DNA of 62,731 nt, the filler included, from Basidiobolus meristosporus CBS 931.73 (Eukaryota; Fungi; Basidiobolomycota): the NCBI GenBank assembly GCA_002104905.1. It is 3 parts of 3 records of this genome, joined end to end, with 100 filler letters (N's around TTAATTAATTAA, not from the genome) between each part and the next. Parts side by side here need not be neighbours in the genome. Positions count along the whole stretch, not along the records: positions 1 to 27,836 come from MCFE01000896.1; positions 27,937 to 49,385 come from MCFE01000990.1; 1 more part is not named here. The stretch is one strand, 5' to 3'. The position numbers and the translations under genes were made by a program. The notes beneath the pieces are model-generated. The model saw nothing but the letters and a program-made list of their open reading frames with translations. It searched no databases and had not been told where the DNA came from. This document shows, piece after piece, positions 280 through 44,640 of this stretch; position 1 is the first letter of the stretch; each line of letters begins with the position of its first letter.

Positions 280-861
280 TGTTACAAGTCTTGGTATAAG
301 AGTTGTAGAGGAATAGGGAGTTTAGCTAGTATTGTATTCACTAAAACTTGAACAGATCTTTATTGAGATTCCAGCAGCTCCTTATATATACTTTACCAGA
401 TCAATTGCTGACTAATTGTATTTCCTGATGTAGGCTGTGGCTGATAACTCATTTGATTGCATCATTATCACCCAATAAGATCTTACCTAATATATCTATT
501 TCTGTCTGAAAAGGATCTACTGATTCATTTGCTGACTAATGGTACTAATTTGATAGAAAATACTGATATATTGATAACCTAAACATATAACTAGTTGATT
601 TGACTAAAAACTGATCTAACTTAAAAGACTTGTTCCATTGTGCCATTGATCATAGTGCCAGAGAGTGCTGTATATTTTGTTATTAATGTGATATTTTAGG
701 GTCATATGCATGTCAATTTTGATCCCAAATTGGCACTGTATGGCACCATCTGGCACTCTGTGGCATGATCAGGACCATCTGGCATGCTATGGCACTATTG
801 GGCACTATGATCAGCCGGAATGATTGAATAAGTCTAAATATTCAAGCTGCAGATCATAACA
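280..861. mobile_element. Solo LTR (~370-bp family), interrupted by a 210-bp MITE
   Basis: Starts TGTTA and ends TAACA. Homologous along its length to 33268-33635 once 626-835 is removed. Its flanks (gag fragment on the left, chromovirus LTR on the right) share no TSD. Confidence 0.8.
626..835. mobile_element. 210-bp MITE of the AGACTTGTTC (PIF/Harbinger-superfamily) family
   Basis: Begins AGACTTGTTCCATTG, ends GAATAAGTCT; AAA duplicated at 623-625 and 836-838; many TGGCAC(T) motifs. Confidence 0.8.
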
Positions 862-9467: not shown

Positions 9468-10937
9468 AGACTTATTCCATTGGATAGTGCCACATTGAGC
9501 CATGAGTGCCAAATGATGCCATAGTGTGCCAGAGAGGTCAAGTGAGCCTATACTTGGCCACACAGTGTGAAACATAGTTCTGCATCTTCATGTAAAGCAG
9601 CCCCTGTGTTTCACTCATTGCGCAGGAGAAAATCCATATTTTGACCTTTTTTTGTGGACCAATGTAGCTCAGGATGTGAAAGAGCACAGGAGAACTGAAG
9701 ATATGCATCTGGTACTCAATACCCATGGCACTCTGAATCTAGCTCTTGTAGCTTGTATCATGTCACAAGAATGAATGGCACTATCTTGGTCCACTGGTAC
9801 TATCTGGCACTATAATTCAATATTAGCCCTAAAATAAGATCTATACAAAGCACTTATAGTGCCAGATAGTACCAGTGGACCAAGATAGTGCCATTCATTT
9901 TTGTGACATGATACAAGCTACAGGAGCTAAATTCAGAGTGCCATGGGTATTAGACTTGTTCCGTTGGATAGTGCCACATTGAGCCATGAGTGCCAAATAG
10001 TGCCATAGTGTGCCTGAGAGTCATAGCAGACCTAAGCTTGGCCACAGAGTGTGACATATAGTTCTGCATATTCATGCAAAGCAGCCCCTGTGTTTCACCT
10101 ACTGTGCGGGAGAAAATCAATTTTTTAGCCTTTTTTTTGGGATCAAAATTGTGCATTATGTAAAAGAGCACAGACAGACTGAAGATATGCATCTGGTACA
10201 TAATACCCATGGCACTCTATATCTAGCCCTATAGGCTTGTAGCATGTCACAAAAATGCATGGCACTATCTTGGTCCACTGGTACTATCTGGCACTATAAG
10301 TGCTTTGTATAGGTTCTACTTTAGGGCTAATATTTGAATATGGTGCCAGATAGTACCAGTGGACCAAGATAGTGCCATGCATTTTTGTGACATGCTACAA
10401 GCCTGTGGGGCTAGATTTAGAGTGCCATGGGTATTATGTACCAGATGCATATCTTCAGTCTGTCTGTGCTCTTTTATGTCATGCACAATTTTGATCCCAA
10501 AAAAAAGGTTAAAAAGTTGATTTTCTCCTGCACTGTAGGTGAAACACAGGGGCTGCTTTGCATGAATATGAAGAACTATATGCCACACTTTGTGGTCAAG
10601 TTTAGGTCTGCTATGACTCTCAGGCACACTATGGCACTATTTGGTACTCATGGCTCAATGTGGCACTATCCAACAGAACAAGTCTATTGAGTACCAGATG
10701 CGTATCTTCAATTGGCTTGTGCTCTAACACATCCTGCACAACATTGATCCAAGAAAAAGGTCAAAAAATGGATTTTCTCCAACTCAATGGGTGAAACACA
10801 GGGGCTGCTTTGCATGAAGATGTGGAGCTATGTTTCACACTCTGTGGCCAGGTAGAGGCTCACTTGGCTTCTCTGGCACACTATGGCATCATTTGGCACT
10901 CATGGCTCAATGTGGCACTATCCAACGGAACAAGTCT
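9468..10937. mobile_element. Palindromic MITE (733 bp net) inserted in the copia-1 integrase and carrying a second MITE
   Basis: AGACTTATTCC...GGAACAAGTCT termini; AAT duplicated at 9465-9467 and 10938-10940; removal restores the copia sequence GAGCCAAAAAATGTAAAATGC. Confidence 0.92.
9952..10685. mobile_element. Palindromic MITE (734 bp) nested in the opposite orientation inside the MITE above
   Basis: AGACTTGTTCC...GAACAAGTCT termini; ATT duplicated at 9949-9951 and 10686-10688; spacer inverted relative to the host copy. Confidence 0.92.
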
Positions 10938-13900: not shown

Positions 13901-14047
13901 AGGTGTGATAGCTAAAAATAGATTCTGAGGTGGGATAAAATAAACTGTAACTGGGATTTCTTATGTTTGGGTTAGGGAAAATCAGTTAGGGTACTAGAAT
14001 TTCAAACGGAGTAAAATTGGCTAAGTTTTAAATGTTGATGCACAACA

Positions 14048-16640: not shown

Positions 16641-16652
16641 ATGAATGCGGAA

Positions 16653-20048: not shown

Positions 20049-23000
20049 ACGGAGTAAAATTGGCTAAGTTTTAAATGTTGATGCACAACACATATACCTT
20101 GTATTGCTGGTTACATATACATCTTGCCAGTGTAGGCTTGGTTGCCGCCACCTTTGACATGTATACCTCCTGAAAATATTCAAAGAACATCTTGATATTA
20201 AGCCAGTATACTCCTTCTCCCTGCTGGACTCTAGTCCCCCTTATAGGTGCACTCTGGCTCTTGTTTGTGTGAATTCTATATTGAATGGTGCAGAAACTTG
20301 CATGTGACCAAGAGAAATCTGACAAACCTTGGCATAGTTTTCCTAATAAAAGTTAGTTGCTGGTTGCACCCAACCCTAGTTTGCATTACTTAAGTGATTA
20401 CCCACGCATTGGGGCTGCTTAGCTTCTTAATGCCATATGCACAGGTGTTGCCATGTGTACATCTGTTCTCAGTATTTTACAACTATTTTGGGCTGTCCTC
20501 CATTTTCCAACTCATCACATCCATGACAGACATGAAGGTAGTATTCTTGATGAGATTAGGATATTGTGGTACCTGTGACTTGACTTGTCTTCCTATCTCC
20601 CCACACATCTGCTCCATAAGAAACTCCCAAAAGGTGATGCAAGGTCCAATATTCCCAACACACCAAGCAAGATGGAATAGCAAACGGATATAGTAGCAGC
20701 AGAGATGCACATGCTCCGCTTTGTGTTAGTAGTTTAGCCACTCTAATCCTGTCACAGACTCTTTGCACAAAAGCTGTAGATGCATCAACTTGGCCTTGGC
20801 AATCCACATCTGGATAATTATTCCTACAATGTTGATATATGACTCCCAATGCTTCCAATGTACTCCTAATCAAAATGCCTTCAGAAGGCCAATTGAATAA
20901 ATAAATATCCAGTTTATCCAGTACTTGCACTTGTATTGTTGCATATGTATATGAATGTTGGTTGGAGCCAAGAGAAGTACTTAGGGTAGCAGATGCTCTG
21001 TAGTAACCTACCCATTCTTTCAGATTTCTCCTGTATCTTAAAGGGCCCATTTGGCTTGAAATGCCCCATGTACAACTTTGTCATCAGTATGGGGATATTG
21101 TTGACAAGCAAATGCATTGCTCCCAGTGGAAAGCTTTTGCTCCAGCAGAAACCCACTATCTTAAGTATCTCCAGTTTCTGATTAATTCCATATTCTGGCC
21201 AATGGCTTAAAGCTTGACAACTTTACTGCAATTGCATGCTGACTTCTGTATGTTCTCTCTGTGGAAAGATGATGCTGTTAGTGTTCGTGTTTGGGCAATA
21301 TCAAGGTGTGTAAGTTATGGAGTAAGTCCCCTGGATCTTACACATCTGACTGCAATACTATCAATGTGCCAGAAAAAGCCAGCTAACTTGCTGATGGCTG
21401 GGGTATCTCAAATGCAGATAATAATGTGCACTTTTACATGACAGCCATTTACTGTTGTCCCACTTAAAACCATCCAATATTCTTCCAGTAATGGATACAG
21501 GTAGCTATCCAGGTTGGATTGTGATTTAGGCCCAGATACCATTGAGACTACCATCAGACTTCTGCTCTGTTGCTGTAAGATAAGTAGCAGATTTAGGATT
21601 ATGAGAATCAGCAGCCAGTAAGATTTGCTGAAAGAGTACTTGTTTAATGAGAATCCATCAAGTGTCAAGATAAAGGCATATGTTGCACATAACTTCAAAG
21701 TAGCCTTTGCTTCTTAGCTGCTTGTAATGTTTGCCGTTGAATATATCTGATATGTTTGCACTTGATTGATACTGGGTGTGGTACTTTATAGCTTCACAAT
21801 ACTTGTTGGACTGCATGAGCTGCCTGAGAGGGGGTATTACCAAAATATATCCATGTTGTGAACAAAGTTTTCCCCCAACAGTGGTCAATTCCTGACATAT
21901 CAGGCACCTTGTAATGGCAGAAGTTATGATGTGAATTTCATGCAACTGTTTACAAATGCAGGATCAGGACAATCTCTAGGTCATATGTTGCCAGCTGCAT
22001 GACAGTTTTCCATCTATACCAAGTACATGGTAAGTTGCATCCTGGGATGATTTTGGCAAGTAGTAGTAGTAAATCCTCAAAGCCCCCATTACTGATATTA
22101 GTGAAAATGCATCACTTCTCTAACTACCACATCATATCATTTGTGCAATTATGGATTACTGGGCTCACTTGACCCCATAAAGTATCCTTGAAATTTTTTT
22201 CTATTGGTGTTGTATCATTGCATAATGGGATCTTGCCAGGATCACACAGGGTACTGTTGTTAGGGAATATAAGCTCACAATTCATTAGTTAGCCTGCTTC
22301 TTCAGAGCTATGACTCTGCAAGCCATATTCAGAAGGCTGGGGTGAGCCTAAAAGCATCACATACTCATCTGACTCAGTTTGCACAAGGTGACAAGTATAG
22401 ACAGATGCCATTTTGGAAGTATCAAGTGACTGGCAAGATATTGTTGGTACAGCAGTGACTGGTGAAAGGTCAAATATGACTTGTGTGGCAAAATGCTGGC
22501 TGTGATCTTTGTAATACTTCCCATCCTGTCTGTATGCTTTATGGCTCAGAGGCTTGCTACAATAGACTTGTTCCATTGTACCGTGCCAGGGCGCGCGGCG
22601 CAATCTGCGGTTGCAAAGAACAATCAGGCGCAATATTATAGCTACCAGAAGGCAGGATTGTTCTTGGACAATTTTGCACTATGCGGGACAATCTTGCACA
22701 CTATGGCACAATCTGACACGATGAGGTTGGCGCGGATGATTGCACCAACTCGTAATGCTTGCATTACGTGCGCAATCGGATACCGCTATAATGGCAGGTA
22801 AAATCCGGTATTTGGATATGTTTCTTTAATGTAAATGGAAATAAATGTGTATCACACTATAAACTACACTGTTACTTACCATTTTGGTTACCCTCACTCC
22901 AATTGGACAGTATCTCAGTGGTTAATTGGTCCAAAAGTATCCTGAAGCTGGCAGCCCCCAATTGGCTCATTGACTACTGAAAAAGCTACCTGATTCGCCA

Positions 23001-23306
23001 TCAAATATCCCATTTTGCCCATTGAGCAAGTAAATCCCTGATCCTAGTGATTGGGCAAGGTGTCATAGCTAGCACGCAAGCAATCGTGTAGGTGCGAAAC
23101 AGATCCAATAGCTGCACTGGTATTACAGATGACGTATATATATGCAGGGTGTTTATTTATAAGGGTTCTGTCTCAAATGTGAGACAACCTTGATATTACT
23201 TATATCAAAAATTTGATGATCACTGATTTGCGATGGCTCAATTCGGATTGCAAAAAAAAAGGGTTGTCGGGATCATTACAAATGTGAGAGATTCAAAGCG
23301 ATCGCA

Positions 23307-24548
23307 TCATCTTCTCCTGGGTTTTTTTCTCACAGGGATTACTACTGAAGCATTTGGTAGTGACTCGCTTTGCACACCTATACTACTTCCTGGCTGACTA
23401 TCATCTTGGCTACTTGTGTATTCGTAGTCAGTATTTTGCCTCCTAGTTGATGAGTGCGATGCTGCAGCTTGGCCGCGCTGAATTGCTCCAACTGAACCAA
23501 CTGAACCAACTGAACCGGCCTGTAGTGCCACGCGCTGACGCATTCTTTTACTTGCCAAGGGCTCCGGTGGATGAGTCACTTCATGTTGGTCATCATCAGT
23601 CAGTTCACCAGAAGTAACTTGCTGATGGTCAGGCAAAACGGCACGTGCAGGCGCGCCTTGACGCGTTGAGATGGCCCTTGGCTGAGTTCAATATGATGCC
23701 GCATGTTGACGCAACTTGGTCCGCTCCAATGGACTTGTGTCTAAATGAGCAGTTTGGCAAGTTCTGGTAGTTTTGCTCTGAAGCACGCGCGTTGGCTCGA
23801 CGCGGGGCGTTCTGGTAAAGGGTGTTGGCGTGGTCTGGACTGACATGCGCTGGCGCGCTGTGGTTGCAAGAGATGGTAGGGAATCCAGCGAGGCGTGCTG
23901 GCGCAATCTGGACAATGTTGCTTGCGGTCTGTATTCTTCCTCCTGAAGCTCACCATCTGATTCCTCAAGGTATTCACTTACCCTCTGTCTGATACTTTGG
24001 GGCTGTTGCCTGGATGAGTCCTGTGTATATTGCTCTCGGAAGCCACTTAGCTCTACTAATATATCACGTAGTACATTAGTCATTTGAGGCAAAAACTCAT
24101 TCAAAATCTCTTTGGTTCCCAAAGTTGAGGCACAAACGGACGCGTCTGGCCCATACTGTGCAAATTGCGCGCGAAATTGTTCCCGCGTGGCTTCCTCGTC
24201 AAATCCCCTCACTCTCAGCTCATTCTTGATTTCAATACTTGTCTTGTTATATATCTTTTTACATACATCAGCTGGCATCTTGATGTAGAACTCATGCCAC
24301 AGCTTTCTACTCAAATTCTTCCATCTTTGTCGACTCTCTGAGGTATCTAGTTCTGCTAGATTAATCAGTAGTGCCCAAATATCTGTATGAAGGCTCATCA
24401 TAGACACTTGGGCCATACTAAAATCATTTGGCAAGAACTCAAACGGATCCAACATTGACTTTTCCGGTCCGGACCGCGCTTGTGAGCTGGGGGATGGGTT
24501 TTGTCTGGGTTGTACTAAAGATGAGTTGAGGCTTGGTATGGGGACCAT
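23307..24548 (-). pseudogene. Accessory ORF of copy A (414 codons, one internal TGA at 23688-23690); function unknown
   Basis: ORF-track pieces 23688-24548 and 23307-23636 are in the same frame, separated by a single TGA; ends in a basic KKPRRR (NLS-like); homolog in copy B. The start codon is uncertain. Confidence 0.65.
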
Positions 24549-24905
24549 AGCAACGGATTTGGATACTTATACAGCAGTATATTGGCATCAACCTGGTCTT
24601 ATATGAAATATATGAAAACTAAAGTGATTGTTGAATTTTCCATATATTATGCATGATGCATCTTGGATTGCGTTGACACGGATCAGATCACATCAATTGC
24701 AGATTTCCTATTTGATTATAGACCTATGACTAAAGCATCAATAAAAGTACCAGGGCATTGTTTGCGGATGATTTTTGCGACATAATGATGGGATACATGG
24801 CAATTGATGGAGATTTAACCATAATGTGTTAAAAATCAGATAAATAATGCAGATCGCGCCAAATCAATTCAAACCGCCACCATACAATCATCCATCAATT
24901 TTAAT

Positions 24906-25581
24906 ATGACTTACTCATCTGAATGGTCTTTTCTCATCAATCCCATCACTACCACTGGATTTCCTTTTGACACACTGGAGGAGATCTATTCCAAGTACTG
25001 TGGACCATCAACCCCAATCTACTCAAGGAGATCCCTTGTTAAGCTTCTCTGCTATTACAAGAACTATTGCCCTACAAGGTTTCATCCCACCATCCATGGC
25101 AACAAAAGTCCTAGAAGCTTTCATTCCCAGCTGACAGCAATGGAGAACCACCTTGCAGAGGGTATGAATGACTTAGAGCAAGCTTGGAATACTAGGTTCA
25201 GAAGCTCCAATAGACTTCCATATCCCAGAGTGTTCAGCAACAGGTTCCATATCAGGAGTATTTTGGATACCTTCCCAGTGAGGATTAACAGACCTTCTAG
25301 AGGGCAGTGGCACTTTTATTCTGGCAAGTACAAGGCACACTGTGTGAAGTTTCAAGCACTGTCTGACATTGAGGGTAACATCATCTGGTTTAGTGGGTCA
25401 TTTGCTGGAAGTAGGCATGACAAAGCACTCTGGGTAGAGAATCATCCTGAATTCAGTAGAGGGGAGAAATGTATGGCAGACTTGGCCTATATAGGAGAGG
25501 ATTGTCAGAGATTAGGATGTATTACAGCTTATAGGAAGCCAAGGAATGGTGTGCTTAGCAGGAAGCAGAAGCTCTACAATG
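24906..25581 (+). CDS. DDE_Tnp_4 (PIF/Harbinger-type) transposase, 5-prime ~225 codons, interrupted by copia-2
   Basis: Motifs ILDTFP, FYSGKYKAHCVKFQ, GSRHD, MADLAY; the missing C-terminus (RVEHTFG) is present in copy B. Confidence 0.85.
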
Positions 25582-27836
25582 TGTTGTAAAAATTCGTATT
25601 TTCCACCTAAATATTCACCTAACTTAGTCACTTAGATCATCACCTTCAAATCCTAGAGAATACTGACCAAATTCCTTGTCGGGATTTACTTAGAATATTT
25701 TCACCAAAATACCAGGTACCCAGAACATGAAAATTCTCAAAGTTGTCCAAACAGCCCCAAACTTTGCACACATGTTCTTGGGACCTTCCTTAACCTATTC
25801 TACGTGTTTGTAATGCCAAGACCATGTAAAAGTATAAATACTACTTTTACATTCAATAAATCATTAAGTGAAAACCACATAATCTACTTGTTCTCCCAAT
25901 CACTTCCAATATCTCCAAGACTCTTACAACAGGTTATGAGCCCCGAGCTGTCACTCTCTGCAATGTCTACTACTGCTATTACTGGAATTTTTCCCTCTGC
26001 TGAAAAGTTGGATGGATCTAACTACCAAGTGTGGAAGGTGAAGATGAAGATGCTGCTGCAAGAAAGAGGCCTTTGGGATATTGTCATGGGAGAAGAATGC
26101 CCTCCTAAAAACGTGGGAGAGGAAGCCTTAAAGTACCAGAAGAAAGAACAAAGTGCCTTTAACTGCATTTGCCTTAATGTCAAGGACAAATTGCTAATTC
26201 AATGCTCAAGAGCAAAAACGGCAAAGAATGCCTGGAAAGCATTAGAAGACACCTACCAGTCATGTTCAGCTGCCAAGAAAATGTATCTGAGAAGAAAATT
26301 CTTTACTACAAAGATGCTGCCAGGAGAAGACATGAAAAATCTAATTAACAGAATTACCCTGCTGGTAGATGAGATGGAATCTGTGGGCGTACCAACTACT
26401 GATGAGGATGTGATAGTTACCATCCTGAATAGCCTGACAGACAAGTTTCAGGGCCTTGTATCAGCCCTAGAGTCCAGAACTGAAGATTTGACCTTAAATT
26501 ACGTATATGGAAGGCTCCTGGATGAAGAATTAAGAAAATCAAGCGCCAATAAGAAGGAAGAAGAAAATGCTTTAATAAGCAATGATAACCAACAAAGGAG
26601 GTACCCAAGACCCTACAAAGGCAACAGCAACCTATTTTGCAACTACTGCAAAAGGAAAGGACACACATCAGACCGGTGTTTCAAAAAGAGAGATTATCAG
26701 CAAAAGAAGCCTGAATATGGAAATGCTGTAACAACTGAAGATAGACTATTCATATCTGCACTAAATATGACCACAAACAAGGATTCTCAGACGTGGTATA
26801 TTGACTCTGGAGCTTCTCAACACTTTACACACCAAAAAGAACTTTTTACCCAATATCAAGAAATTCCAATTAAGAAGGTTTTCATGGGTGACGATAGAAC
26901 ACTTGATGCAGTGGGAGAAGGAACTATCCAAGTAAACCTTAGAAGCAGTGAAGGAAGCCATACACTGACCTTTAAAGAAGTACTCTATGTACCAGAAATA
27001 GCCAAGAACCTACTCTCTGTAAGCAAGGCCACAGCAGAAGGACTCAGTTTCAGTTTTGACAATTCTGGATGCAGGATCACTGATCAAAATGGTGCCCATA
27101 TTGCTTCGGGCATCAGAGATCAGAACCTATACAAGTTGACTTATATTCCATCATATCTGGAAGCCAATATAAGTAACTTAAATGAAGAAACACCAATGCT
27201 TTGGCACAGGAGATTTGGACACATCAATTTTGATTATTTGCGTAAAATGATCAAAGATCAGCTAATTTCTGGAGTGAAAATTGATCCCCCAGCTATTTTG
27301 GAGCACTGTGAAGCCTGCATATATGGGAAACAAGCCAGACAACCGTTCAAGAGCTCTGGGTTAATCAAAACTAAGAAAAAATTAGATCTAATTCACTCAG
27401 ATCTGTGTGGACCTATGCAAAATTTATCCTTAGGCGGGATGAAGTATTTAATCACTTTTATTGATGATTATACAAGATACACATGGGTCTACTTCATGGA
27501 GAGAAAGGAAGAAGCTCTGTCTAAGTTCAGGGAGTTTAAAGCCATGGTGGAGAGAGAAACTGGTGAAAAAATCAAGAAAATACGCTCTGACAATGGTGGA
27601 GAATATACCTCAAAACTCTTCATCCACTTCTGCAAAATTCATGGGATAAAGCAAGAGACTACTGTACCATACTCCCCACAGCAAAATGGAGTAGCAGAAC
27701 GAGCTAACAGATCAATAATTGATATGGCAAGATCTATGATCCATGATCAAAAATTATCCTATGATTTTTGGGCGGAATCAGTTGCCACTGCTGTATATCT
27801 TAAAAATAGGAGTTATAACAGAATACTTCGTGATTC
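25582..27836 (+). mobile_element. Ty1/copia copia-2, 5-prime half up to the gap; best-preserved copy
   Basis: LTR 25582-25931; PBS GGTTATGAGCCC 25932-25943; uninterrupted Gag-zinc knuckle-protease-integrase frame to the gap (CNYCKRKGHTSDRC, IDSGAS, LWHRRFGH, HSDLCGP, SDNGGEY). Confidence 0.93.
25936..27836 (+). CDS. copia Gag-Pol polyprotein, partial (runs into the gap)
   Basis: No stops from the ATG inside the PBS to the N run; domains as listed for copia-2. Confidence 0.85.
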
Positions 27837-27936
27837 NNNNNNNNNNNNNNNNNNNNNNNNNNNNNNNNNNNNNNNNNNNNTTAATTAATTAANNNNNNNN
27901 NNNNNNNNNNNNNNNNNNNNNNNNNNNNNNNNNNNN
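27837..27936. other. Assembly gap with artificial linker
   Basis: 100 nt of N with TTAATTAATTAA (stop codons in all six frames) at 27881-27892. Confidence 0.95.
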
Positions 27937-28093
27937 AAAGTTGAGGTGATAGAAGTATGTTGATTGCGGTAGGTGTGCACATTTTTAGAGGTTATCAAGC
28001 AAGAGGCCATAGTTTTTTAGATTTGAACTGTATGTGGAATACCCAAGGTAGTAGTGGTTAAGCAAATAAAGAGGGGTGATTCTACAGTGGAAT
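27937..28093 (+). mobile_element. Short CACTA fragment (transposase 3-prime region)
   Basis: Aligns with 2950-3105 and with the reverse complement of 31035-31190. Confidence 0.7.
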
Positions 28094-28826
28094 AGACTTG
28101 TTCCATTGGATAGTGCCACATTGAGCCATGAGTGCCAAATGATGCCATAGTGTGCCATGGAGGCCAAGTGAACCTATACTTGACCACAGAGTGTGAAACA
28201 TAGCCCTGCATCTTTATGCAAAGCTTCCCCTGTCATTCACCCATTGTGTTGGAGAAAATCAATTTTTTGACCTTTTTTTTTAGGTCAATGTTGTGCAGGA
28301 TGTGTAAGAGCACAAAAGGTTTGAAGACATGCATTGGGTACCCAATACTCATAGCACTCTAAAGCTAACTCCTCTGGCTTGTCACATGTCAGAAAAATAC
28401 ATGGCACTATCTTGGTCCACTGGTACCATCTGGCACTATATTTAATTATTAGCCCTAAAGTAAGATCTATACAAAGCACTTATAGTGCCAGATAGTACCA
28501 GTGGACCAAGATAGTGCCATACATTTTTGTGACATGATACAAGCTGCAGGAGCTAGATTCAGAGTGCCATGGGTATTGAGTACCAGATACATGTCTTCAG
28601 TTCTTCTCTGCTCTTACACATCCTGCACAACATTGATCCATAAAAAAGATCAAAAAATTGATTTTCTCTGGCATGGTGGGTGAAACAAAGGGGCTACTTT
28701 GCATGAAGATGAAGAGCTATATCTTACACTCTGTGGCTAAGCATAGACTTATTTGGCTTGCCTGGCACACTATGGCATCATTTGGCACTTATGGCTCAAT
28801 GTGGCACTATCCAACAGAGCAAGTCT
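28094..28826. mobile_element. Palindromic MITE (733 bp) with non-matching flanks
   Basis: Same termini and internal structure as the other copies; left flank is CACTA sequence ending AAT, right flank is mid copia LTR starting AAA. Confidence 0.9.
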
Positions 28827-31800
28827 AAAGTATAATACTACTTTTATATTCAATAAATCATTAAGTGAAAACCTAACAATATACTTGTCCTTCCAATTCA
28901 CCTCCAATATCTCCAAGACTGATAAAACAGGTTATGAGCCCCAGGCTCTTACTCTCTGTAATGACTGCTACTGCTATAACTGGAATTTTTCCCTCTGCTG
29001 AAAAGTTGGATGGATCTAACTACCAAATGTGGAAGGTGAAGATGAAGATGCTGCTACAAGAGAGAGGCCTTTGGGATATTGTCATGGGAGAAGAAGGCCC
29101 TCCTAAGAACATGGGGGAGGAAGCCCTAAAGTACCGGAAAAAAGAACAAAGTGCCTTTTACTGTATTTGCCTTGATGTTAAAGACAAATTGCTAATTCAA
29201 TGCTGAAGAGTAAGAATAGCAAAGAATGCCTGGAATGCATTAGAAGTCACCTACCAGTCATGTTATGCTACTAAAAAAATGTATCTTAGACAAAAATTCT
29301 TTACTACAAAGATGCTGCCAGGAGTAGAAATGAAAAATTTAATTAACAGAATTACCCTGCTGGTGGATAAGATGGACTCTGTGGGTGTACCAACCACTGA
29401 TGAGGATGTGATAGTAACCATCCTGAATTTCCTCACAGATGAGTTTCAGGGCCTTGTATCCCCCCTAGAGTCCAGAACTGAAGGTTTGACCTTGAATTAT
29501 GTACATGGAAGGCTCCTGGATGAAGAATTAAGTAAATCAAGCGCCAATAAGAAGGAAGACAAAAGTGCTTCAATAAGCAATGATAACCAACAAAGGAGGT
29601 ACCTGAGACCTTTCAAAGGCAATAGCAACCTGTTTTGCAACTACTGCAAAAGGAAAGGACACACATCAGACCAGTGTCTCAAAAAGAGATATAATAAGCA
29701 TTAGAAGCCTGAATATGGAAATACTGCAACAACTCAAGATAGACTATTCATATCTGCACTAAACATGACCACAAACAAGGATTCTCAGATGTGGTATATT
29801 GACTCTTGAGCATCTCAACACTTTACATACCAAAAAGAACTTTTTACCCAATACCAAGAGATTCCAATTAAACAGGTTTTCATGGGTGACAATAGAACAC
29901 TTGGTGCAGTGGGAGAAGGAACTATCCAATTAAGCCTTAGAAGTAGTGAAGGAAGCTAGACACTGACCTTTGAAGAGGTACCCTCTGTATCAGAAATAGC
30001 CAAGAACCTACTATCTGTATGCAAGGCCACAGCAGATGGACTCAGTTTCAGCTTTGACAATTCTGTTTTCAGGATCACCAAACAAGATAGTTCCCATCTT
30101 GCTTTGGATATCAGAGATCAGAATCTATACAAGTTGACTTATATTCCATCATATCTAGAGACCAATATTGGTAACTTAAATGAAGAAACACCAATGCTTT
30201 GGCACAGGAGATTTGGGCACATCAATTTTGCTTATTTGCACAAAATGATCAAAGATCAGCTAATTTCTATACTAAAAATTGATCCCCTAGCTAACTTAGA
30301 GCACTGTGAAGCCTGCATAAGTGAGATATAAGCCAGACAACTGTTTAAAAGCTTGGGGCTAATCAAAACAAAGAATGAATTAGATCTAATTCACTCAGAT
30401 CTGTGTGGACCTATGCAAAATTTATCCTTAGGCAGGATCAGGTATTAAGTCACTTTTATTGATGATTATACAACACACATCTGGGACTACTTCATTGAGA
30501 GAAAGGAAGAAGCTCTATTTAAGTTCAGGGAGCTTAAAGCCATGGTGGAGTGAGAAACTGGTGAAAAATCAAGAAAATATGCTCTGACAATCCCTACAAA
30601 AAATAGCTTGGTCCAGCGGTGGATCCAGTCCAGATCAGCTGTCAAGATCCTGTTAAGAGACCAGGATAATAACAGCAGCTGGGAATTAGTGACCCTCCTG
30701 ACAATCTGATGATGGGATCATAACGGTGTTTCACTAATCTACAACTAAATAAAGAGTTAGACTTGACAATATTTTATCGGTGCTAGGACAATATTTGTAT
30801 GGTATTGTTGAGGTCTTTCAGCACTCTATTACAATTTACATGGATCCAGTTGGCCAGGACATCCAATTGCCTTATATGGCAAGAAACTTGATGGTATTTT
30901 GACAGCCTCACAGCAAGACATTAAGGGCATTATAATGACAGTATGCCAGCCTAGCGCTGGTTCCATATAATGCTACTGTACCAACTTACCAAATGGTATT
31001 TCCTTTTTATACCTCCCCTTGAGCAATTCATATATTCCACTGTAGAATCTCCCCTCTTTATTTGCTTACCCACTACTACTTTGTGTATTCCACATACAGC
31101 TCAAATCTGAAAAAACTATGGCCTCCTGCTTAATAACCTCTACAAACGTGCACACCTACCGCAATCAACATACTTCTATCACCTCAACTTTACAGCTTAT
31201 TAGAGTGATACTTGCAAATTTGCCATATACATTGTACTGCTGGTAACAAATACATCTTGCAAACAGATGCTTGGTTGTTGCCACTTCTGCCATGAATACC
31301 TCCTGAATATCTGCAAAGAACTTCTTGGTATTTAGCCAATATATTCCTTCTCCCTGCTGGATTCTAGTCCCCCTTATGGGTGTGCTCTGGCTTTTGTTTG
31401 TGTGAATTACATATCAAATGATATAGATGTTGGCTTGTGACCATGAGTAATCTGCCATATCTTGGTAGAGTTTTCTGATAAAAATTAGTTGCTTGTTGCA
31501 CCCAACCCAACTTTGTATTACTTAATTGATTACTCACACATTGGGGCTGCTTAGCTTCTTAATGCCATAGGCATAGGTGTCTCCATGTGCACATTTGTCC
31601 TCAGTATTTTCCAACTCTTTCTGGCTGTCCTCCATGTGCCAACTCATCACATCCATGAAAGACTTGAAGGTAATATTCTTGATGAGATTGGGATATGGTA
31701 GTGCCTGTAACTTGACTTGTCTTTCTATCTCCCCACACATCTGCTCCATAGGAAGCTCCCAAAAGGTGAAGCAAGGCCCAATATTTTCCACACACCATGC

Positions 31801-33267
31801 AAGATGGAGTAGAGAATGGATACAGTAGCGGCAGATATCTACGTGCTCAGCTTGATGTTTGTAGAATAGCCATTCAAATCCTGTCACAAACTCCTTGCAC
31901 AACAGCTGTAGATGCATCAAGTTGGCATTGGTGATCTGCTTCTGGATAAATATTCCTACAATGTCTACATATGACTCCCAATGCATCTAATGTACTCTTG
32001 GTAGGAATGGCTTTAGAACACCACTTGAATAAATACATATCCAGCTCATCTAGTCTTTGCATCTGTATTGTTGCATATGCGTATGAATATTAATTGGAGC
32101 TCATAAAAGTACTCAGGGTAGTGGATACTCTGTAATATCTTGCCAATTCTTTCAACTATCTCCGGTATCTCAAAGGGCTCATTTAGCTTGAAATGCCCCA
32201 TGTACAACTTGGTCATCAGTATAGGGACATTGTTGAAAAGCAAATGCATTGCTCCCAGTGGAAAGCTTTTGCTCTCACAGATGCGCTCTATCTTAAGTAT
32301 CACCAGTTTCCAATTGATTTATATTCCAGTCATTGGCTTATAGCATATCATCTAACAGCAATACCGTCCATTGTGCCTGGAAAAACCTGCTATCTTGCTG
32401 ATGGCTGGGGTATCTCCAATGCTGATAGTAATATGAGCTTTTACATGACAGCCATTTACCATTATCCTGCTGGAAAGCATACAAAATTCATCCAGCAATG
32501 GATACAGGTAGCTATCCAGGTTGGACAGTGATTTAGGCCCAGATACCAGTGAGACTACCATCAGATTATTGCTCTGATACTGTTAGATGGGCAACAGATT
32601 CAGATTGATGAGAATCAGTGGCCAGCAGGATTTGCTGGTAGGGTACTTGTTTAATGAGAATCCATCAAGTGCTAAGGCAAAGGCTTGGTCATACATGCCT
32701 TCAAAGTAGCCCTTGCTTCTTAGCTGTTTGTAATGTTTGCCATCAAACATATTGGATGTGTTAGCGCTTGATTGATACTAGACTTGTTCTATTGTACCAT
32801 GCCAGGGTGCATGGTGCAATCTGCAGTCTCTAAGAGCAATCAGGCGCAATATTGTAGCTACCAGTTTGCAGGATTGCTCTTGGACAATTTTGCACCATGT
32901 GGCACAATCTTGTACACTGTGGTATAATCTGACACAATGAGGTTGGCACAATTGATTGTGCCCACTTGTAATGTTTGCATCATGTGCACAATTGGATACC
33001 GCTATTATGGTAGGTAAAATGCGGTATTTGGATATGTTTCTTCAATGTAAAAGGAAATAAATGTGTATTACACTATAAACTACACTGATACTTACCATTC
33101 TGGATACCATCACTCCAATTGGATGGTATCTCAGTGGTTAATTGGTCCAAAGTATCCTGAAGGTGTCAGCCCCCAATTGGCTCTTTGACTAACACAGATG
33201 ATGTATACATATGCAGGGTGTTTTTTTATAGGGGTCCTGTCTCAAATGTGAGACAACATTGATATTG

Positions 33268-33635
33268 TGTTACAAGTCTTGGTATAAGAGTTGTAGAGGA
33301 ATATGGAGTTTAGCTAGTATTGTACTCACTAAAACTTGAACTGATTTTTATTGAGGTTCCAGCAGCTCCTTATATACATTTTGCCAGATCAATTGCAGAC
33401 TATTTGTATTTCCTAGTGTAGGTTGTGGCTGATGACTCATTTGATTGCATCATCATCACTCAATAAGATCCTACTTAATATATTTATTTCTGTCTGATAA
33501 GGATCTACTGATTCATTTGCTGACTAATGCCACTGATTTGATACATAATACTGATATACTGATAACCTAAACATATAATAATTGATTTGACTAAAAACTG
33601 ATCTAACTTAAACATTTAAGCGGCACATCACAGCA
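33268..33635. mobile_element. Solo LTR (368 bp) inside copy B
   Basis: TGTTACA...CAGCA; ATTG duplicated at 33264-33267 and 33636-33639; absent from copy A at the equivalent site (~23195); homolog at 280-861. Confidence 0.85.
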
Positions 33636-34601
33636 ATTGCTTATATCAAAAATTTAGTGATCACTGATTTGCAATGGCTTGATGCGGATTGCAAAAAAAA
33701 TGTGTTGTTTGGATCATTACAAACAATATCAATTCAATGCAATTGCATCATCTTCTCCTAGGCTTTTTCCTCACAGGGATTACTACTGAAGCATTTGGTA
33801 GTGATTCACTTTGCACACCTAAACAACTTTCTTGTTGACTATCCTCTTGGCTATTTGTGTATTTGTAGTCAGTATTTTGCCTCCTAGTTGGTGAGGGCAA
33901 TGCTGTAGCTTGGCCATGCTGAATTGCTCCGGATGATGCAACTGAGCCGGCCTGCAGTGCTACACACTGATGCGTTCTTTTACTTGCCAAAGGCTCTGGT
34001 GGTGGAGTCACTTCATGTGGGTCATCATCATTCAGCTTACCAGAAGAAACTTGCTGATAGTCAGGTATAATGGCACACACAGACGCAACTTGATGCACTG
34101 GCATGACCCTTGGCTGAGTTCAATGTGATGCTGCTTGTTGACGCAACTTGCCCCCGCTTCAATGGACTTGTGTCTTTTTGAGCAGTTTGGTGGGTTCTGG
34201 TGGTTTTGCTCTGAAGTGCGCACGTTGACCCAATACAAGTTGAGTCAATGCGGGGCACTCTTGTGAAGGGTGTTGGTGTAGTTTGGACTGATGTGCGCCG
34301 GCGCACTGAAGTTGCAAGGGATGATAAGGAATCCAGCAAGGCATGCTGGCACAATCTAGACAATGTAGCTCACAGTCTGTATACTTCCTCTTGAAGCTTA
34401 CCTTCTGATTCCTCAAGGTATTCACTTACCCTCTGTCTAATACTTTGGAACTGTTGCCTGGATGAGTCCTGTGCATATTGCTCTTAGAAGCCACTTAGCT
34501 CTACTAATATATCACATATACATTAGTCATTTGAGGCAAAAACTCATTCAAAATCTCTTTGGTTCCCAAAGATGAGGCACAAACGGATGCATCCGGCCCA
34601 T

Positions 34602-35672
34602 TGTAGTGGGGTGACAGTGACACCCACTGACAGATGTGCTCATTCCCATATTTTTGACTTCCCTATATCTCTACTTCACTAATTTTAGTATTATCCCATA
34701 TGTCTTACCTGATCAGTACTATCTCATAAGCCAGTTGACTCTCACACCTGCTCACCTTATTGCATAAGTTATCCCTCACTTTATGTAAGATTACTAGCTA
34801 TAAGTGCTTCTATATTAGGCAAATACCCGCGCCAGTACCCTTGACAAATGATCAACCCGTGTAACCATCCCTACCATTTCCATACCATATATGGTATCCC
34901 TATGTTACACAGGTTTCAGAGTACTGATTCCTGACTGGTTGGATGTGATGTGCCTCTTAGAACCTTCCAGCACCTACTTAGAACATTCTTAGGTCATTCT
35001 GATGTCATTAAGATTTCTATTGATATCTGGAACCTTCTGGAACATCATGATTAGTAATCACCTAGCCAGTAAGAAAAGTATATAAGGGAGGCAATCCTTC
35101 AACAACAAATCATCATCCCTTTTATCAATTTACCAACATGTTGATTAGTGTGATCACTGCTGCCTGCTGCTACCTGAACTTCCAACCCTAGACCACAGGA
35201 CACTCCCAGAAAACCATGCTGACAGCCAACTGACCTTGGAGGCACTACTTGTGAGGAATACTCAGAGTAGGTATCTTTTATTGTATTTGATTCTCTCCCA
35301 AGTTTGTTCTTGTGCAGGCAAAGATACTTTTCTGTCTTTGTAACTATTGACCACAGCTGCATTCTTATCAAGTCCCTGCAGGTGGAGTTTACAGTTGTTT
35401 TGACTTTGGAAGCTTTAGTACATTGTCATCTGAAAGGATGCTGGACCCAGTACATACTTTTGTTAAGACACCAACTAAGTTGGGGATTGTAGCTCAATAG
35501 TGTTCCCTTGACAAGCTTGTGGCTTTATTCCCCATCACATTAGATTAGAGACAGAACCCAAATATTCCTAGCAAGCTTTTGCCAGAGGTTATTGCACCCA
35601 GTGAACACCCCACACACAAAATGCTTGAGAAGTGTTGGACATATCTCTCCCTTGGACCTATACTCCACCACA
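34602..35672. mobile_element. Solo LTR (1071 bp) inside the copy B accessory ORF
   Basis: Reverse complement of 18977-20048; TG...CA; absent from copy A at ~24155; flanks CCAT and CTGT. Confidence 0.9.
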
Positions 35673-36081
35673 CTGTACTGAGCAAATTGCATGCAAAATT
35701 ATTACTGCGTGGCTTCCTCATCAAATCCTTTCACTCTCAGCTCATTCTTGATTTCAATACTTGTCTTGTTATATATCTTCTTACATACATGCGCTGACAT
35801 CTTGGTGTAGAAATCATGCCACAGCTTTCTACTCAGGTTCTTCCATCTCTGTCAACTCTCCAAGGTACCTAGTTCTGCTAGACTAATGAGTAGTGCCCAA
35901 ATATCTATATGAAGGCTAATCATAGACACCTGGGCCATACTGAAATCATTTGGCAAGAACTTGAATGGATCCAACATTGCCTTTTCTGGCTTGGACCGCG
36001 CTTGCAAGCTGGGGGATGGGTTTTGTCTGGGTTGAACTAAAGATGAGTTGAGACTTGGTATAGGGACCGTAGTGACAGATT

Positions 36082-36728
36082 TGGAGCACCTTGCAGAGGG
36101 TATGAATGACTTAGAGCAAGCTTGGAGTACTAGGTTTAGAAGCTCCAATGGACTTCCATATCCCAGAGTGTTCACCAACAGGTTCAATACAAGGAGTATT
36201 TTGGATACCTTCCCAGTCTGGATTAACAGACCTTCTAGAGGGCAGAGGCACTTTTATTCTGGCAAGTACAAGGCACACTGTGTGAAGTTTCAAGCACTGT
36301 CTGACATTGAGGGTAACATCATCTGGTTTAGTAGGCCACTTGCTGGAAGTAGGCATGACAAAGCACTCTGGGTAGAGAATCATCCTGAATTCAGTAGAGG
36401 GGAGAAATGTATGGCAGACTTAGCTTATATAGGAGAGGATCGTCAGAGACTAGGATGTATTACAGCTTATAGGAAGCCAAGGGATGGTGTGCTTAGCAGG
36501 AAGCAGAAGCTCTACAATGAGATATTTAATCATTTCAGAGTGAGGGTAGAGCACACGTTTGGATATCCAAAGAGATTCAGCATATTGGAAGGGAAATACA
36601 GAGGAAAGTCATATATACAAGAAAGCAGCAGAATAGGTAAAATAGTTAAGATACTTATCATTGCACAGTATATTTATACAAGAAGACATCCACTGAGAGA
36701 AATATGTCTGGAGCATTATGAAGAGTAA
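36082..36728 (+). pseudogene. DDE_Tnp_4 transposase of copy B, lacking the first ~80 codons
   Basis: ILDTFP, GSRHD, MADLAY and RVEHTFG motifs in one frame; the 5-prime end is fused to the accessory ORF start by a deletion. Confidence 0.85.
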
Positions 36729-38455
36729 ATAAAGCAAGGAAAGCACTACTCTGAGCAACATAAGTAAAATTGAGTAATATTACCAGTAACTATATCCTCC
36801 TACTGGCATTATGGTAGAAATTATAGTACCAGAGAGTGCTAGATCAATCCGGCACTATAAACAGGCTGGCACTATGTGGAATTATCCAACAGAACAAGTC
36901 TACTAAGCGCAGTACTATATAGCTTTGCAATATTTGTTGGACTGCATCAGCTTCCTCAGACAGGGTATGACCCAAATATATCTGGAGTGTGAACATGTTT
37001 TCCCTCAATGTTGGTGGATTCCTGACAATTTGGACATGTTGCAATGGTAGCATTTTTGGATGTGAATGCCATGCAACTGTTAACACATGCTGGAATCAGG
37101 ACAGTCTCTGGATCATATGTTGCCAGCCACATGATGGTTGTCCACTTGTACCATGTACATGGTAAGTTGCATCCTGGTATGATTTTGGCAAGAAGTAGTA
37201 ATAAATCCTCAAAGCCCCCATTACTGATATTAGTAGAAACACGCCACTTCTCTAGCCACAACATTACATCATTTACCAGCAGATGGATTACTGTGCTCTC
37301 TTGGCTCCATAAGTATCCTTGGCATTTGTTTCAACAGGTGATGCCTCATTGCATATAGGGATTTGACCAGGCTCATATGTGGTACTGTTGTTAGGGGAGA
37401 TAGGCTTAAAATTCATCAGTGAACCTTCTTTGACAGAGCTATCACTCTGCGTGCCATGTTCAGAAGGCTGAGGTGAGCCTAAAGGCATCACAAACTTACC
37501 TGACTCAGTATGTGCAAGGTGATAAAGACAGCCAGGTGCCAATATAGAAGTACCAACCAGCCAGCAAGATAATGTTGGTACAGTAGTGACCAATGAATGG
37601 TCAAATATGACTTGGGTGGCAAAACACTGGCCGTGATCATTGTAATACTTCCTATGCTGTCTGCATACTTCATGGCTGAGAGGCTTGCCACAAGAGCCAC
37701 ATGGTCTTTTTTCTTTTCTCTTACAGCATTGAGTCAAAGTAGTCTTGTCCATGGGGCAAACGGTCTGACCTTCAACAACATAATACTATTATATCACTTT
37801 TTGGTCAATACTCATGTGAACTTAAGACAGTCTTGTATTTGAGACATTGCACCTACATGAATGTAAGATTCAATGATGACCTGCCATAGTAAGCATTATA
37901 AATAAAGTTGTGGCATCATATACACATGTATATGTAACACCATTTCTCTGTAGACTTGGCTCACTTCAATACATATGCCTCCACACAATACAGCAAAGTT
38001 GTCTGGTTCCTAACAAAGCCCATGGATGATGGCAGCAGAAGAACAGTTGGACAACAGATTGCTTTGACATTCAGTGCATCAAGCAGGGCTATATCCAAAA
38101 AAGGCTATGTTAACATTGTGCCCACTGAAAGTAATTATGTGGACTCCTCAGGCTCTCAGTGAAATAGGCAATTGAGAACCTCTGCAGAGCCACAAACTGA
38201 CTATTATGCTCAGGCAGATGAGAATGAAGCAAATGCAGTACCCTCAGTTGAAGATCAGCAAGTGGCCATGATAACATCACCACCACCCATATTAGCAAGT
38301 ATGTTGTCAGCTCATACCAAAGCATTAATGAAGCAACTAGGTGCAGTGGCTGATAGGATAGATGCAATGGCCCAGAGAAATCAGGAAATAGTCCCAAAAC
38401 AGGATGAGTGGATAATATGTGTAGATCAATCAATATCCCAGGAAGAGAAAGCAGT

Positions 38456-39189
38456 AGACTTGTTCTGTTGGATAGTGCCACATTGAGCCATGAGTGCCAA
38501 ATGATGCCATAGTGTGCCAGAGAGGTCAAGTGAGCCTACACTTGGCCACAGAGTGTGAAACATAGCTCTGCATCTTCATGTAAAGCAGCCCCTGTGTTTC
38601 ACTCATTGCGCAGGAGAAAATCCTTTTTTTGACCTTTTTTTTTGGATCAATGTAGCTCAGGATGTGTACAAGCACAGGAGAACTGAAGAGATGCATCTGG
38701 TACTCAATACCCATGGCACTCTGAATCTAGCTCCTGTAGCTTGTATCATGTCACAAAAATGAATGGCACTATCTTGGTCCACTGGTACTATCTGGCACTA
38801 TATTTAAATATTAGCCCTAAAGTAAGAACTATACAAAGCACTTATAGTGCCAGATAGTACCAGTGGACCAAGATAGTGCCATTCATTTTTGTGACATGAT
38901 ACAAGCTACAGGAGCTAGATTCAGAGTGCCATGGGTATTGAGTACCAGATGCATATCTTCAATCTGCTTGTGCTCTAACATATCCTGCTCAACATTGATC
39001 CAAAAAAAAAGGTCAAAAAATGGATTTTCTCCAACATGATGGGTTAAACACAGGGGCTGCTTTTCACGAAGATGCGGAGCTATGTTTCACACCCTGTGGC
39101 CAGGTAGAGACTCAATTGGCCTCTCTGGCACACTATGGCATCATTTGGCACTCATGGCTCAATGTGGCACTATCCAATGGAACAAGTCT
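38456..39189. mobile_element. Palindromic MITE (734 bp)
   Basis: Arms ~38456-38802 and ~38843-39189 with a 40-bp spacer; AGT duplicated at 38453-38455 and 39190-39192. Confidence 0.93.
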
Positions 39190-39664
39190 AGTATCTTTTC
39201 TGCAAAGAAGAAACTCAAGTAGCTTAATGACACAGTCAAGAATTGAGCCATTTCCTGATGTAACAGCAGAAGAACACCGTACAGTCTTTGAAGCACAACA
39301 ACAGTGCCTAAAGATAAAGCCCACAAAGAATCCTATCATAGTGTGGGAGGGAGACAAAGTGGTGTTTATACCAAAGCCTAAAAATCAAAAGACATTGAAG
39401 AGCCGTGAAGCCATTGAGTGCCATAATGAAGAGTGGGCCAGCACTCAAGAGGCTGCTAGAGGTCTAGCTTACCTTCATCTAGAGGCCAGCATACCATGGC
39501 ACCATCAGGAACTCAAGGCCAAGCAGAATGTACTTGACTTGTTCCATGAGCATTATCCTGGATTCAAGCAGGCAAACAGATTTTGGGCCAGCATTGGTAT
39601 GCTAAGAAAGTATCTTAAGAATAGCAGAAACTATCAAAGGCAGAAGAACAAGGGAGCCATGGCT

Positions 39665-44550: not shown

Positions 44551-44640
44551 GTGAGTAGATACAGTGGCCACCAAGATATATGTACTCAGGCTTATGGTAA
44601 TGGTACAGCCATTTGTATCTCTTCACAACCACCTTTTATG

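What the first reader, a model, noticed from the sequence alone, without database searches (positions are those of the whole stretch)
22564..36901. Reconstructable two-gene Harbinger-superfamily transposon with A-N-T target duplications (Pangu-like) and its own MITE families
Seen: two defective copies complement each other. A has the divergent promoter region and the transposase N-terminus; B has both termini and the transposase C-terminus. Together they give a ~3.3-kb element with a ~295-aa DDE_Tnp_4 transposase head-to-head with a ~414-codon ORF of unrecognised function. The AGACTTGTTC terminus occurs on seven insertions in this window. Paired TSDs are AAT, ATT, ACT, AGT and AAA. Knowledge: classical PIF/Harbinger duplicates TAA/TTA; ANT duplication is, as I recall, the hallmark of the Pangu group of PHIS transposons. 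Inference: this is an autonomous-plus-MITE system, possibly an undescribed family.
Basis: partly seen in the sequence, partly recalled or inferred. Interest (0 to 1): 0.8.

Follow-up and report, generated by a model that had tools for sequence, protein, structure and literature searches.

The report
Two-gene A-N-T transposon, bacterial-like transposase
Two broken copies and five short non-coding derivatives outline a real, roughly 3.4-kb two-gene DNA transposon that duplicates mostly A-N-T on insertion like Pangu elements, but its compact transposase lacks the Pangu sequence signature and likely belongs to a separate eukaryotic lineage whose ends and catalytic core resemble bacterial IS5-family insertion sequences.

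Summary
Seven insertions share the AGACTTRTTC end. Five have paired 3-bp duplications (AAT, ATT, ACT, AGT, AAA), checked against empty sites for four. Copies A and B together give a 3.4-kb element: a 294-aa DDE_Tnp_4 transposase divergent from a 413-aa second ORF. That ORF's internal stop is likely CpG decay, and its N-terminal part shows purifying selection. By structure the element meets Han et al.'s Pangu criteria. By sequence the transposase does not match the published Pangu alignment (D-T-F vs D-G-T; spacer 17 vs 22-30; E-H vs mostly E-W). It sits in a well-supported clade of compact, unnamed, probably eukaryotic transposases. Its bacterial IS5-family relatives also have AGAC ends and A-W-T duplications, so A-N-T is not diagnostic of Pangu. 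A recent transfer from those bacteria is rejected (AU p=0.0005). Grouping with the one Pangu-signature sequence available is not rejected (p=0.06). No intact copy, activity, Myb fold or protein-protein binding was shown. Repbase and Dfam could not be searched, and the named ISL2PR group may already cover the lineage. Verdict: a new variant of the PHIS superfamily, of moderate interest.

The parts
22564..25581 (+). Copy A: left end, ORF2, intergenic region, 5' 225 codons of the transposase; left flank AAT (22561-22563); cut at 25581 by a copia element
   Evidence: contigs of other genomic copies continue past 25581 with B-type sequence (loose ends)
22564..22578 (+). Left terminal inverted repeat, about 15 bp (AGACTTGTTC-YR-TTG; YR likely a decayed CG)
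22598..22776 (+). Left subterminal GYRCAAT-type repeats (6 in A, 7 in B); candidate protein-binding sites (inferred)
   Evidence: 0 of 300 shuffles reach the count; motif chosen after inspection
23307..24548 (-). ORF2, 413 aa plus stop, interrupted in A and B by TGA at 23688-23690; helical N-terminal part, low-complexity C-terminal part ending VRKKPRRR (NLS-like, inferred)
   Evidence: no Pfam, homolog, Atlas or fold match
24549..24905 (.). 357-bp region between the two divergent start codons (presumed bidirectional promoter); deleted in B
24906..25581 (+). Transposase, N-terminal 225 codons (copy A), with the first two catalytic Asp
32780..36901 (+). Copy B: both ends, ACT target duplication (32777-32779 and 36902-36904), central deletion, two foreign inserts
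   Evidence: empty site near 5.7 kb carries one ACT
36087..36728 (+). Transposase C-terminal 213 codons (copy B); D 36204-36206, D 36417-36419, E 36549-36551
   Evidence: Pfam DDE_Tnp_4 E=4e-21; positions read
36727..36901 (-). Right end of B with TIR and 4 AGTGCY subterminal repeats shared with both MITE families
9468..10937 (.). 733-bp MITE (TSD AAT) interrupted by a second copy
9952..10685 (.). 734-bp MITE nested in the former (TSD ATT); arms of about 348 bp, 94.5% complementary
28094..28826 (.). 733-bp MITE with mismatched flanks (AAT/AAA), likely a chimera of two insertions
   Evidence: flanks match two different host repeats; lowest arm identity (0.825)
38456..39189 (.). 734-bp MITE (TSD AGT)
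626..835 (.). 210-bp second MITE family (TSD AAA), shares the terminus and AGTGCY repeats

Best explanation
This is a decayed family of two-gene DNA transposons with 15-bp AG-starting ends and 3-bp, mostly A-N-T, target duplications, whose 294-aa DDE transposase likely belongs to a eukaryotic PHIS lineage separate from core Pangu and closer in core architecture to bacterial IS5-family elements. Shown: ends, duplications, two divergent ORFs, DDE triad, selection on the N-terminal part of ORF2, and MITEs that share the ends and the right-end subterminal motif. Inferred, by analogy with PIF/Harbinger: the transposase cuts at the TIRs and integrates with a 3-nt stagger at A-N-T. ORF2 would act as the accessory factor that binds the subterminal repeats (GYRCAAT left, AGTGCY right) and brings the transposase into the nucleus through its basic C-terminus. 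The 733-bp and 210-bp MITEs would have been mobilised in trans. Copies then decayed by CpG deamination, deletion and nested insertion.
For: TSDs and empty sites. DDE_Tnp_4 and an intact 294-aa homolog P0001 at 61%. In a 50-row careful tree the 19-row clade holding the window protein has 95/87* support, apart from 25 IS5-like rows at 99/95*. Spacer before the second catalytic Asp is 17 in 25 of 34 clade rows (range 16-22) and 21 of 22 IS5-like rows, against 22-30 in 14 of 14 Pangu rows of Han Fig. S3. The clade has D-[TS]-F in 26 of 33 scored rows vs D-G-[TS] in 12 of 14 Pangu rows, and E-H in 32 of 34 vs E-W in 10 of 14. The clade profile aligns over 138 columns to IS5-like L009 (score 144) but scores 69 with Pangu-signature L018. 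Bacterial relatives have AGAC ends in 6 of 12 loci examined, with ATT, AAT, ATT, ATT and TTT duplications and one mismatch. The four best Atlas feature clusters for clade member P0015 are 83-100% eukaryotic among the few members with a record. ORF2 selection: 13 of 15 listed differences to the relative in run X5 fall on third codon positions (p=3e-5), and 30 of 59 non-CpG A/B differences over codons 1-286 (p=0.004). Two-protein mechanism of Harbinger3_DR (passages of PMC9710019).
Against: No validated Pangu, Harbinger or ISL2EU sequence was in the tree. With the single Pangu-signature row L018 the AU test did not reject a shared clade (p=0.06). Han's Pangu set is itself mixed: 3 of 14 rows lack the xPxG motif and one has E-H. 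The bootstrap had not fully settled and only 141 columns were used. Pairwise core identity to L018 (25%) is no lower than to the bacterial rows (23-27%). 23 of the 30 Atlas feature hits were bacterial IS5-type clusters. The last 126 codons of ORF2 show no third-position excess (14 of 36, p=0.29; 4 of 18 in X5). Many clade members have C-terminal fusions, and no second gene could be checked in them. Two of eight targets are AAA.
Confidence: 0.55

Rival explanations
1. It is simply a divergent Pangu (Repbase Harbinger2) family.
For: Meets Han's structural criteria: ANT TSD, 11-40-bp TIR starting AG, two ORFs, DDE-only transposase, second ORF without known motif, 3.4 kb vs mean 3,487 bp. Han defines groups by TSD. 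AU test does not reject grouping with L018 (p=0.06).
Against: Signature mismatch with all 14 Pangu rows for spacer length, and with most for D-G-T, xPxG and E-W. ANT and AG ends are shared with bacterial relatives, and Han notes the ANT match to IS5.
Confidence: 0.22
2. The element transposes like a one-gene IS5-type element, and ORF2 is a passenger or anti-silencing gene, not a transposition cofactor.
For: The compact transposase keeps IS-like length and core. Many clade members carry C-terminal chromodomain (P0014, Pfam E=9e-11) or Tudor/Agenet-like (weak, P0047 E=0.046) extensions instead. ORF2 diverges faster than the transposase between A and B.
Against: ORF2 is kept head-to-head with the transposase in the two coding copies and is under selection in a second organism's relative. 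The ends carry repeated subterminal motifs of the kind a Harbinger accessory protein binds.
Confidence: 0.2
3. It is a recent horizontal import of a bacterial IS5/ISL2-type element that later gained a second gene.
For: Shared AGAC ends, A-W-T duplication and core spacing; best NCBIfam model transpos_IS5_4.
Against: Only 23-27% core identity to the bacterial rows; scores 22-55 bits against a 140-bit cut-off; HTH_Tnp_4 not detected in 19 of 19 clade rows scanned but present in 3 of 3 full-length bacterial rows. Grouping the window protein with the 11-row bacterial core is rejected (AU p=0.0005). The GTDB scan (one pattern only) returned 17 loci, 16 of them at 25-39% and one 35-residue stretch at 49%.
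Confidence: 0.03

Closest known systems
Pangu group of PHIS = Repbase Harbinger2 (Han et al. 2015, PMC4482050; equivalence from PMC12730594)
   Same: ANT TSD, short TIR starting AG, two ORFs, DDE-only transposase, unannotated second ORF, about 3.4 kb
   Different: Transposase signature (D-T-F, S-D-x-x-G, spacer 17, E-H vs D-G-T, T-P-D-G, spacer 22-30, mostly E-W); genes divergent, whereas Ectocarpus autonomous Harbingers, ANT group included, are tail-to-tail (passage, PMC12477816)
Bacterial IS5-family elements of the transpos_IS5_4 / HTH_Tnp_4 type, e.g. ISMae4, ISCysp19 (the label 'ISL2 group' is recalled, not from a call)
   Same: AGAC...GTCT ends, 3-bp A-W-T duplication, transposase of about 290 aa, spacer 17, gap-poor core alignment
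   Different: 0.9-1.2 kb single-gene elements where both ends were found; HTH_Tnp_4 detected there, not here; 23-27% identity; separate supported branch
ISL2PR and the rotifer IS5-like element (Gladyshev & Arkhipova 2009)
   Same: Eukaryotic elements described as close to bacterial ISL2/IS5 (one sentence in PMC10045372; passage in PMC3673617); may be the same lineage
   Different: Unknown: the primary paper is not held and no sequences were available. The rotifer element is described as single-copy and silent; this family is multi-copy with a second gene and MITEs
Canonical PIF/Harbinger
   Same: Two genes, often head-to-head (passage, bioRxiv 10.64898/2026.05.26.728016), 3-bp TSD, MITE derivatives, subterminal repeats
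   Different: TWA target (0 of 8 here), 400-500-aa transposase, recognisable Myb/SANT partner
ISL2EU
   Same: DDE_Tnp_4 core, two ORFs
   Different: 2-bp AT TSD, GG termini, THAP and HTH domains, YqaJ second gene; none seen here

Membership tests
PHIS superfamily | DDE_Tnp_4-type transposase with intact DDE triad, TIRs, short AT-rich TSD | tested here: met
Pangu (Harbinger2) | 5'-ANT-3' TSD confirmed by empty sites | tested here: met
   4 of 5 paired TSDs and 6 of 8 targets, window only
Pangu (Harbinger2) | TIR 11-40 bp beginning AG or GG | tested here: met
   about 15 bp, AG
Pangu (Harbinger2) | Two ORFs, DDE-only transposase, length about 3.5 kb | tested here: met
Pangu (Harbinger2) | Core signature of Han Fig. 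S3 (spacer 22-30; mostly D-G-T, xPxG, E-W) | tested here: not met
   one search compared by eye
Pangu (Harbinger2) | Transposase falls in the Pangu clade | tested here: inconclusive
   only one unlabelled Pangu-signature row (L018): outside in the tree, AU p=0.06
PIF/Harbinger sensu stricto | TWA TSD | tested here: not met
   0 of 8 targets
PIF/Harbinger sensu stricto | Second ORF with Myb/SANT/MADF domain | tested here: inconclusive
   single-sequence models at pLDDT 56 and 54; a W-x20-W helix pair resembles the motif from recall only
ISL2EU | 2-bp AT TSD and GG termini | tested here: not met
   3-bp duplication by empty sites; AG termini
ISL2EU | THAP+HTH transposase and YqaJ second gene | tested here: not met
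   Pfam scans; 294 aa with no N-terminal extension
Bacterial IS5 (transpos_IS5_4 type) | AGAC ends, 3-bp A-W-T duplication, spacer 17 | tested here: met
Bacterial IS5 (transpos_IS5_4 type) | Passes the family cut-off and nests among bacterial members | tested here: not met
   22-55 bits vs 140; AU p=0.0005
ISL2PR / rotifer IS5-like | Transposase groups with these named eukaryotic ISL2-like elements | not testable with these tools
   paper not held; term found in one paper only
Any Repbase/Dfam family | Near-identical consensus in a repeat database | not testable with these tools
   no such library offered

The most novel reading that the evidence does not exclude
An undescribed seventh PHIS lineage: compact IS5/ISL2-like transposases that entered eukaryotes independently of Pangu, Harbinger and ISL2EU. 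They kept the ancestral AGAC ends and A-N-T target and adapted to chromatin in more than one way: by fusing chromatin-reader-like domains in many members, and by recruiting an unrelated second gene here. The two-gene design and the A-N-T target of 'Pangu' would then be partly ancestral and partly convergent.
Probability: 0.35. Interest if true: 0.65.

Novelty: new variant of a known kind. Interest (0 to 1): 0.42.

Why it matters
PHIS groups are named largely by their target duplication. This element would be filed as Pangu by TSD and layout, yet its transposase appears to come from a different branch, and its bacterial relatives share the same ends and target. If a full tree confirms this, A-N-T is an ancestral IS5-type trait and not a Pangu marker, and the accessory gene of PHIS elements was gained once more, with a protein of unknown family. 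A 294-aa transposase with a loose 3-bp target is also a small candidate for a transposition assay. If the lineage is already in Repbase or is ISL2PR, this is one more family in a repeat-rich genome.

Tried and rejected
Whole-genome TSD census: no genome is held; contig loose ends did not list flanks at the left end, and the TIR pattern was too short for a collection scan. Expression: no RNA holder listed. ORF2 identity: no Pfam family, no homolog among 124 candidates, no usable Atlas hit. Foldseek gave no match at E<=0.001. VIA-align best Z was 7.7 and 7.5 to unrelated helical proteins, with no Myb/SANT chain among the 50 rows listed; the models are too poor to exclude one. Complex prediction of transposase 1-225 with ORF2 30-200: no answer, score 0.00, no evidence either way. 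Reference sequences for Pangu or Harbinger: a homolog search with L018 limited to longer proteins found none of 190 candidates (a poor choice of length setting), and viral-collection scans gave nothing. The Newick tree in PMC12730594's supplement was cut in the held text. The supplements of PMC4122938 gave no ISL2EU alignment, and one file was not searched. No solved structure matched by sequence at a meaningful E-value. Cluster look-ups for 20 clade proteins gave no informative names. Earlier scan findings: nothing relevant. Rejected readings: ORF2 ending at the shared TGA (one search shows the two-way CpG-decay pattern); a 2-bp AT duplication (empty sites give 3 bp); recent bacterial transfer. 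L037 and L038 were left out of the careful tree as long branches. That tree used 50 of the 128 rows of the quick tree.
Full report
Context. No whole genome is held for this window. The window is eukaryotic and repeat-rich. It has copia, chromodomain gypsy and CACTA-type fragments, CpG-poor repeats (CpG o/e 0.28 overall) and split G6PD and EMC1 genes. A fungal host is my impression from the G6PD sequence and was not tested.

Observation. The terminus AGACTTGTTC occurs 10 times exactly, and with near-matches it delimits seven insertions. Five of six two-ended insertions have identical 3-bp flanks: AAA (626), AAT (9468), ATT (9952), ACT (B), AGT (38456); chance p is about 1e-8. Empty paralogous sites confirm 3 bp for B, 9468 and 626 and for 9952; none was found for 38456. 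The sixth, 28094, has flanks from two different host repeats and the lowest arm identity, so it is likely a chimera. Counting A's left flank and both flanks of 28094, 6 of 8 targets are A-N-T (p about 1e-5), 2 are AAA and none is TWA. This is the window only; no genome-wide count was possible.

Anatomy. A (22564-25581) has the left end, ORF2 on the minus strand (ATG 24548), a 357-bp spacer and transposase codons 1-225 (ATG 24906), and is then cut by a copia element. B (32780-36901) has both ends, a deletion of about 570 bp across the spacer and transposase N-terminus, a 369-bp insert and a 1,071-bp TG..CA insert. The arithmetic sum is 3,400 bp and 294 aa, the same length as the intact homolog P0001 (61% identity). 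The TIR is about 15 bp. The left end carries 6-7 GYRCAAT repeats. The right end and both MITE families carry 4-6 AGTGCY repeats. No shuffle of 300 reached these counts, but the motifs were picked after inspection. The 733-bp MITE shares about 35 bp with B's right end, and its four copies are 82-95% identical. Contigs of runs X1 and X2 lay across the whole of A in many divergent pieces, and they continue past A's break with B-type sequence. These runs are one sample and may be the window's source, and depth is no copy number. Run X5, coded as another organism, holds pieces at about 80-90% identity.

ORF2. A and B share a TGA at codon 287. In run X1, 54% of depth has G at 23690 and 48% has T at 23689. 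This is the two-way pattern expected from decay of a CGA codon, and one contig of X3 has CAA there. X5's one covering contig has the TGA form. The 413-aa reading is therefore likely ancestral. The N-terminal part is under selection. 13 of the 15 differences to X5 that one search listed within 24069-24531 are third-position (p=3e-5; 12 of 13 after removing two sites private to A); the listing showed 40 of 930 sites. Also, 30 of 59 non-CpG A/B differences over codons 1-286 are third-position (p=0.004). The last 126 codons show no such excess (14 of 36, p=0.29). Single-sequence models are helical and of low confidence (pLDDT 56 and 54), so its family stays open. A W-x20-W helix pair resembles Myb/MADF from recall only.

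Transposase. It scores on Pfam DDE_Tnp_4 and weakly on NCBIfam transpos_IS5_4. A profile search of 1.84 billion representatives gave 32 proteins at E<=1e-30 and 2,370 at E<=0.001; the best 150 were examined. The top ones share a D-[TS]-F-P / Y-N-G-K-Y / G-P-H-x-G / E-H signature. The 20 looked up come from short contigs and have no informative names. Many have C-terminal extensions, one a clear chromodomain. For P0015 (38% identical in the core) the four best Atlas feature clusters are 83-100% eukaryotic, mostly diatoms among the few members with a record. However, 23 of the 30 feature hits are bacterial IS5-type clusters. In a careful tree of 50 of 128 core rows, the clade with the window protein has 95/87* support and the IS5-like rows 99/95*; the bootstrap was not fully settled. 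Forcing the window protein into the bacterial core is rejected (p=0.0005). Forcing the clade together with L018, the only Pangu-signature sequence I could obtain, is not rejected (p=0.06).

Comparison with Pangu. Han et al. 2015 (PMC4482050; I read parts 1-3 of 4 of the text, the Pangu rows of Table S3 and supplement 2) define Pangu by ANT TSD, 11-40-bp TIRs starting AG or GG, two ORFs, a DDE-only transposase and mean length 3,487 bp, and note that ANT matches bacterial IS5. The element meets all of these. Their Fig. S3 gives 14 Pangu cores with spacer 22-30 in all, D-G-[TS] in 12, xPxG in 11 and E-W in 10. Here the spacer is 17 in 25 of 34 clade rows (range 16-22), as in 21 of 22 IS5-like rows. 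Among 12 bacterial loci examined, 6 have AGAC-type inverted ends, with duplications ATT, AAT, ATT, ATT, TTT and one ATT/AAT mismatch. Several metagenome loci look alike, some with unmatched A-W-T flanks. The ends and target are thus shared with bacterial relatives and do not by themselves indicate Pangu. That those bacterial elements belong to the 'ISL2 group' is my recall.

What is in print. Other papers were seen as passages only: PMC12730594 (also part 19 of its supplement), PMC10045372, PMC3673617, PMC4122938 (also a supplement search), PMC5718144, PMC12477816, PMC9710019 and bioRxiv 10.64898/2026.05.26.728016. PMC1676026, PMC9963178, PMC2572040, PMC4055405 and the other listed papers were seen as search listings only. 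Ten searches showed no description of this signature. But eukaryotic ISL2-like elements are already named (ISL2PR, the rotifer IS5-like element, Harbinger-4_TV in the IS5 clade), their primary source was not held, the relevant Newick tree was cut, and Repbase and Dfam were not searchable. The lineage may therefore be known under another name.

Mechanism. Cut-and-paste with a 3-nt staggered cut at A-N-T follows from the DDE core, TIRs and TSDs. A cofactor role for ORF2 (binding the subterminal repeats, importing the transposase) is inferred from Harbinger3_DR, the retained layout, selection and the repeats. It was not shown. Mobilisation of the MITEs in trans is inferred from shared ends, motif and target. 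No intact or active copy was seen.

Verdict. It works like a Pangu/Harbinger two-gene element, but membership in the Pangu lineage is doubtful (about 0.2). It is a new variant of the PHIS superfamily; interest 0.42. There is about a one-in-three chance that it marks an undescribed PHIS lineage.

Noticed in passing
window 34602-35672 and 18977-20048 (inverted): A 1.07-kb TG..CA solo-LTR-like repeat (94% identical copies). The second copy has a 4-bp CCGT duplication; the first has CCAT/CTGT, consistent with a decayed CCGT, which suggests a target preference.
   Followed up: partly
window 13351-18979 (-): Near-complete chromodomain gypsy retrotransposon with 662-bp LTRs 97.9% identical; a related solo LTR at 53357-54055 and fragments at 862-1418.
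   Followed up: partly
window 7097-13250, 25582-30591, 41107-49385, 59773-62731: Several copies and solo LTRs (about 350 bp) of one copia family, 85-96% identical, nested with the MITEs.
   Followed up: no
window 1419-3551, 5226-6085, 20091-22565, 30589-32779, 36901-37696: Decayed CACTA/EnSpm-type repeat (Transposase_21, weak DUF4218) that hosts both A and B.
   Followed up: partly
window 33268-33636 and 280-about 860: A 369-bp unclassified repeat inserted in B; its other copy carries the 210-bp MITE.
   Followed up: no
window 55734-57330 (-) and 50075-50506 (-): Host genes in CpG-rich islands: glucose-6-phosphate dehydrogenase and an EMC1 N-terminal propeller fragment.
   Followed up: partly
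window 24906-25581 vs 23307-24548: In copy A the transposase has no CpG at all (o/e 0.0) while ORF2 keeps o/e 0.7; unexplained.
   Followed up: no
window 38999-40531 (+): Two consecutive ORF stretches (224 and 285 aa) with a 210-bp internal duplication and no Pfam match; part resembles 4560-4756.
   Followed up: no
proteins P0006-P0052, P0014, P0035, P0046: Clade members carry C-terminal Tudor/Agenet-like (by eye; weak Pfam), chromodomain (P0014) or very long extensions (918 and 1,277 aa; the latter ends in a Ulp1-like stretch by recall).
   Followed up: partly
window 27837-27937: Assembly gap (runs of N around a TTAATTAATTAA linker) inside the copia that cuts A; A's right part may be lost here.
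   Followed up: no
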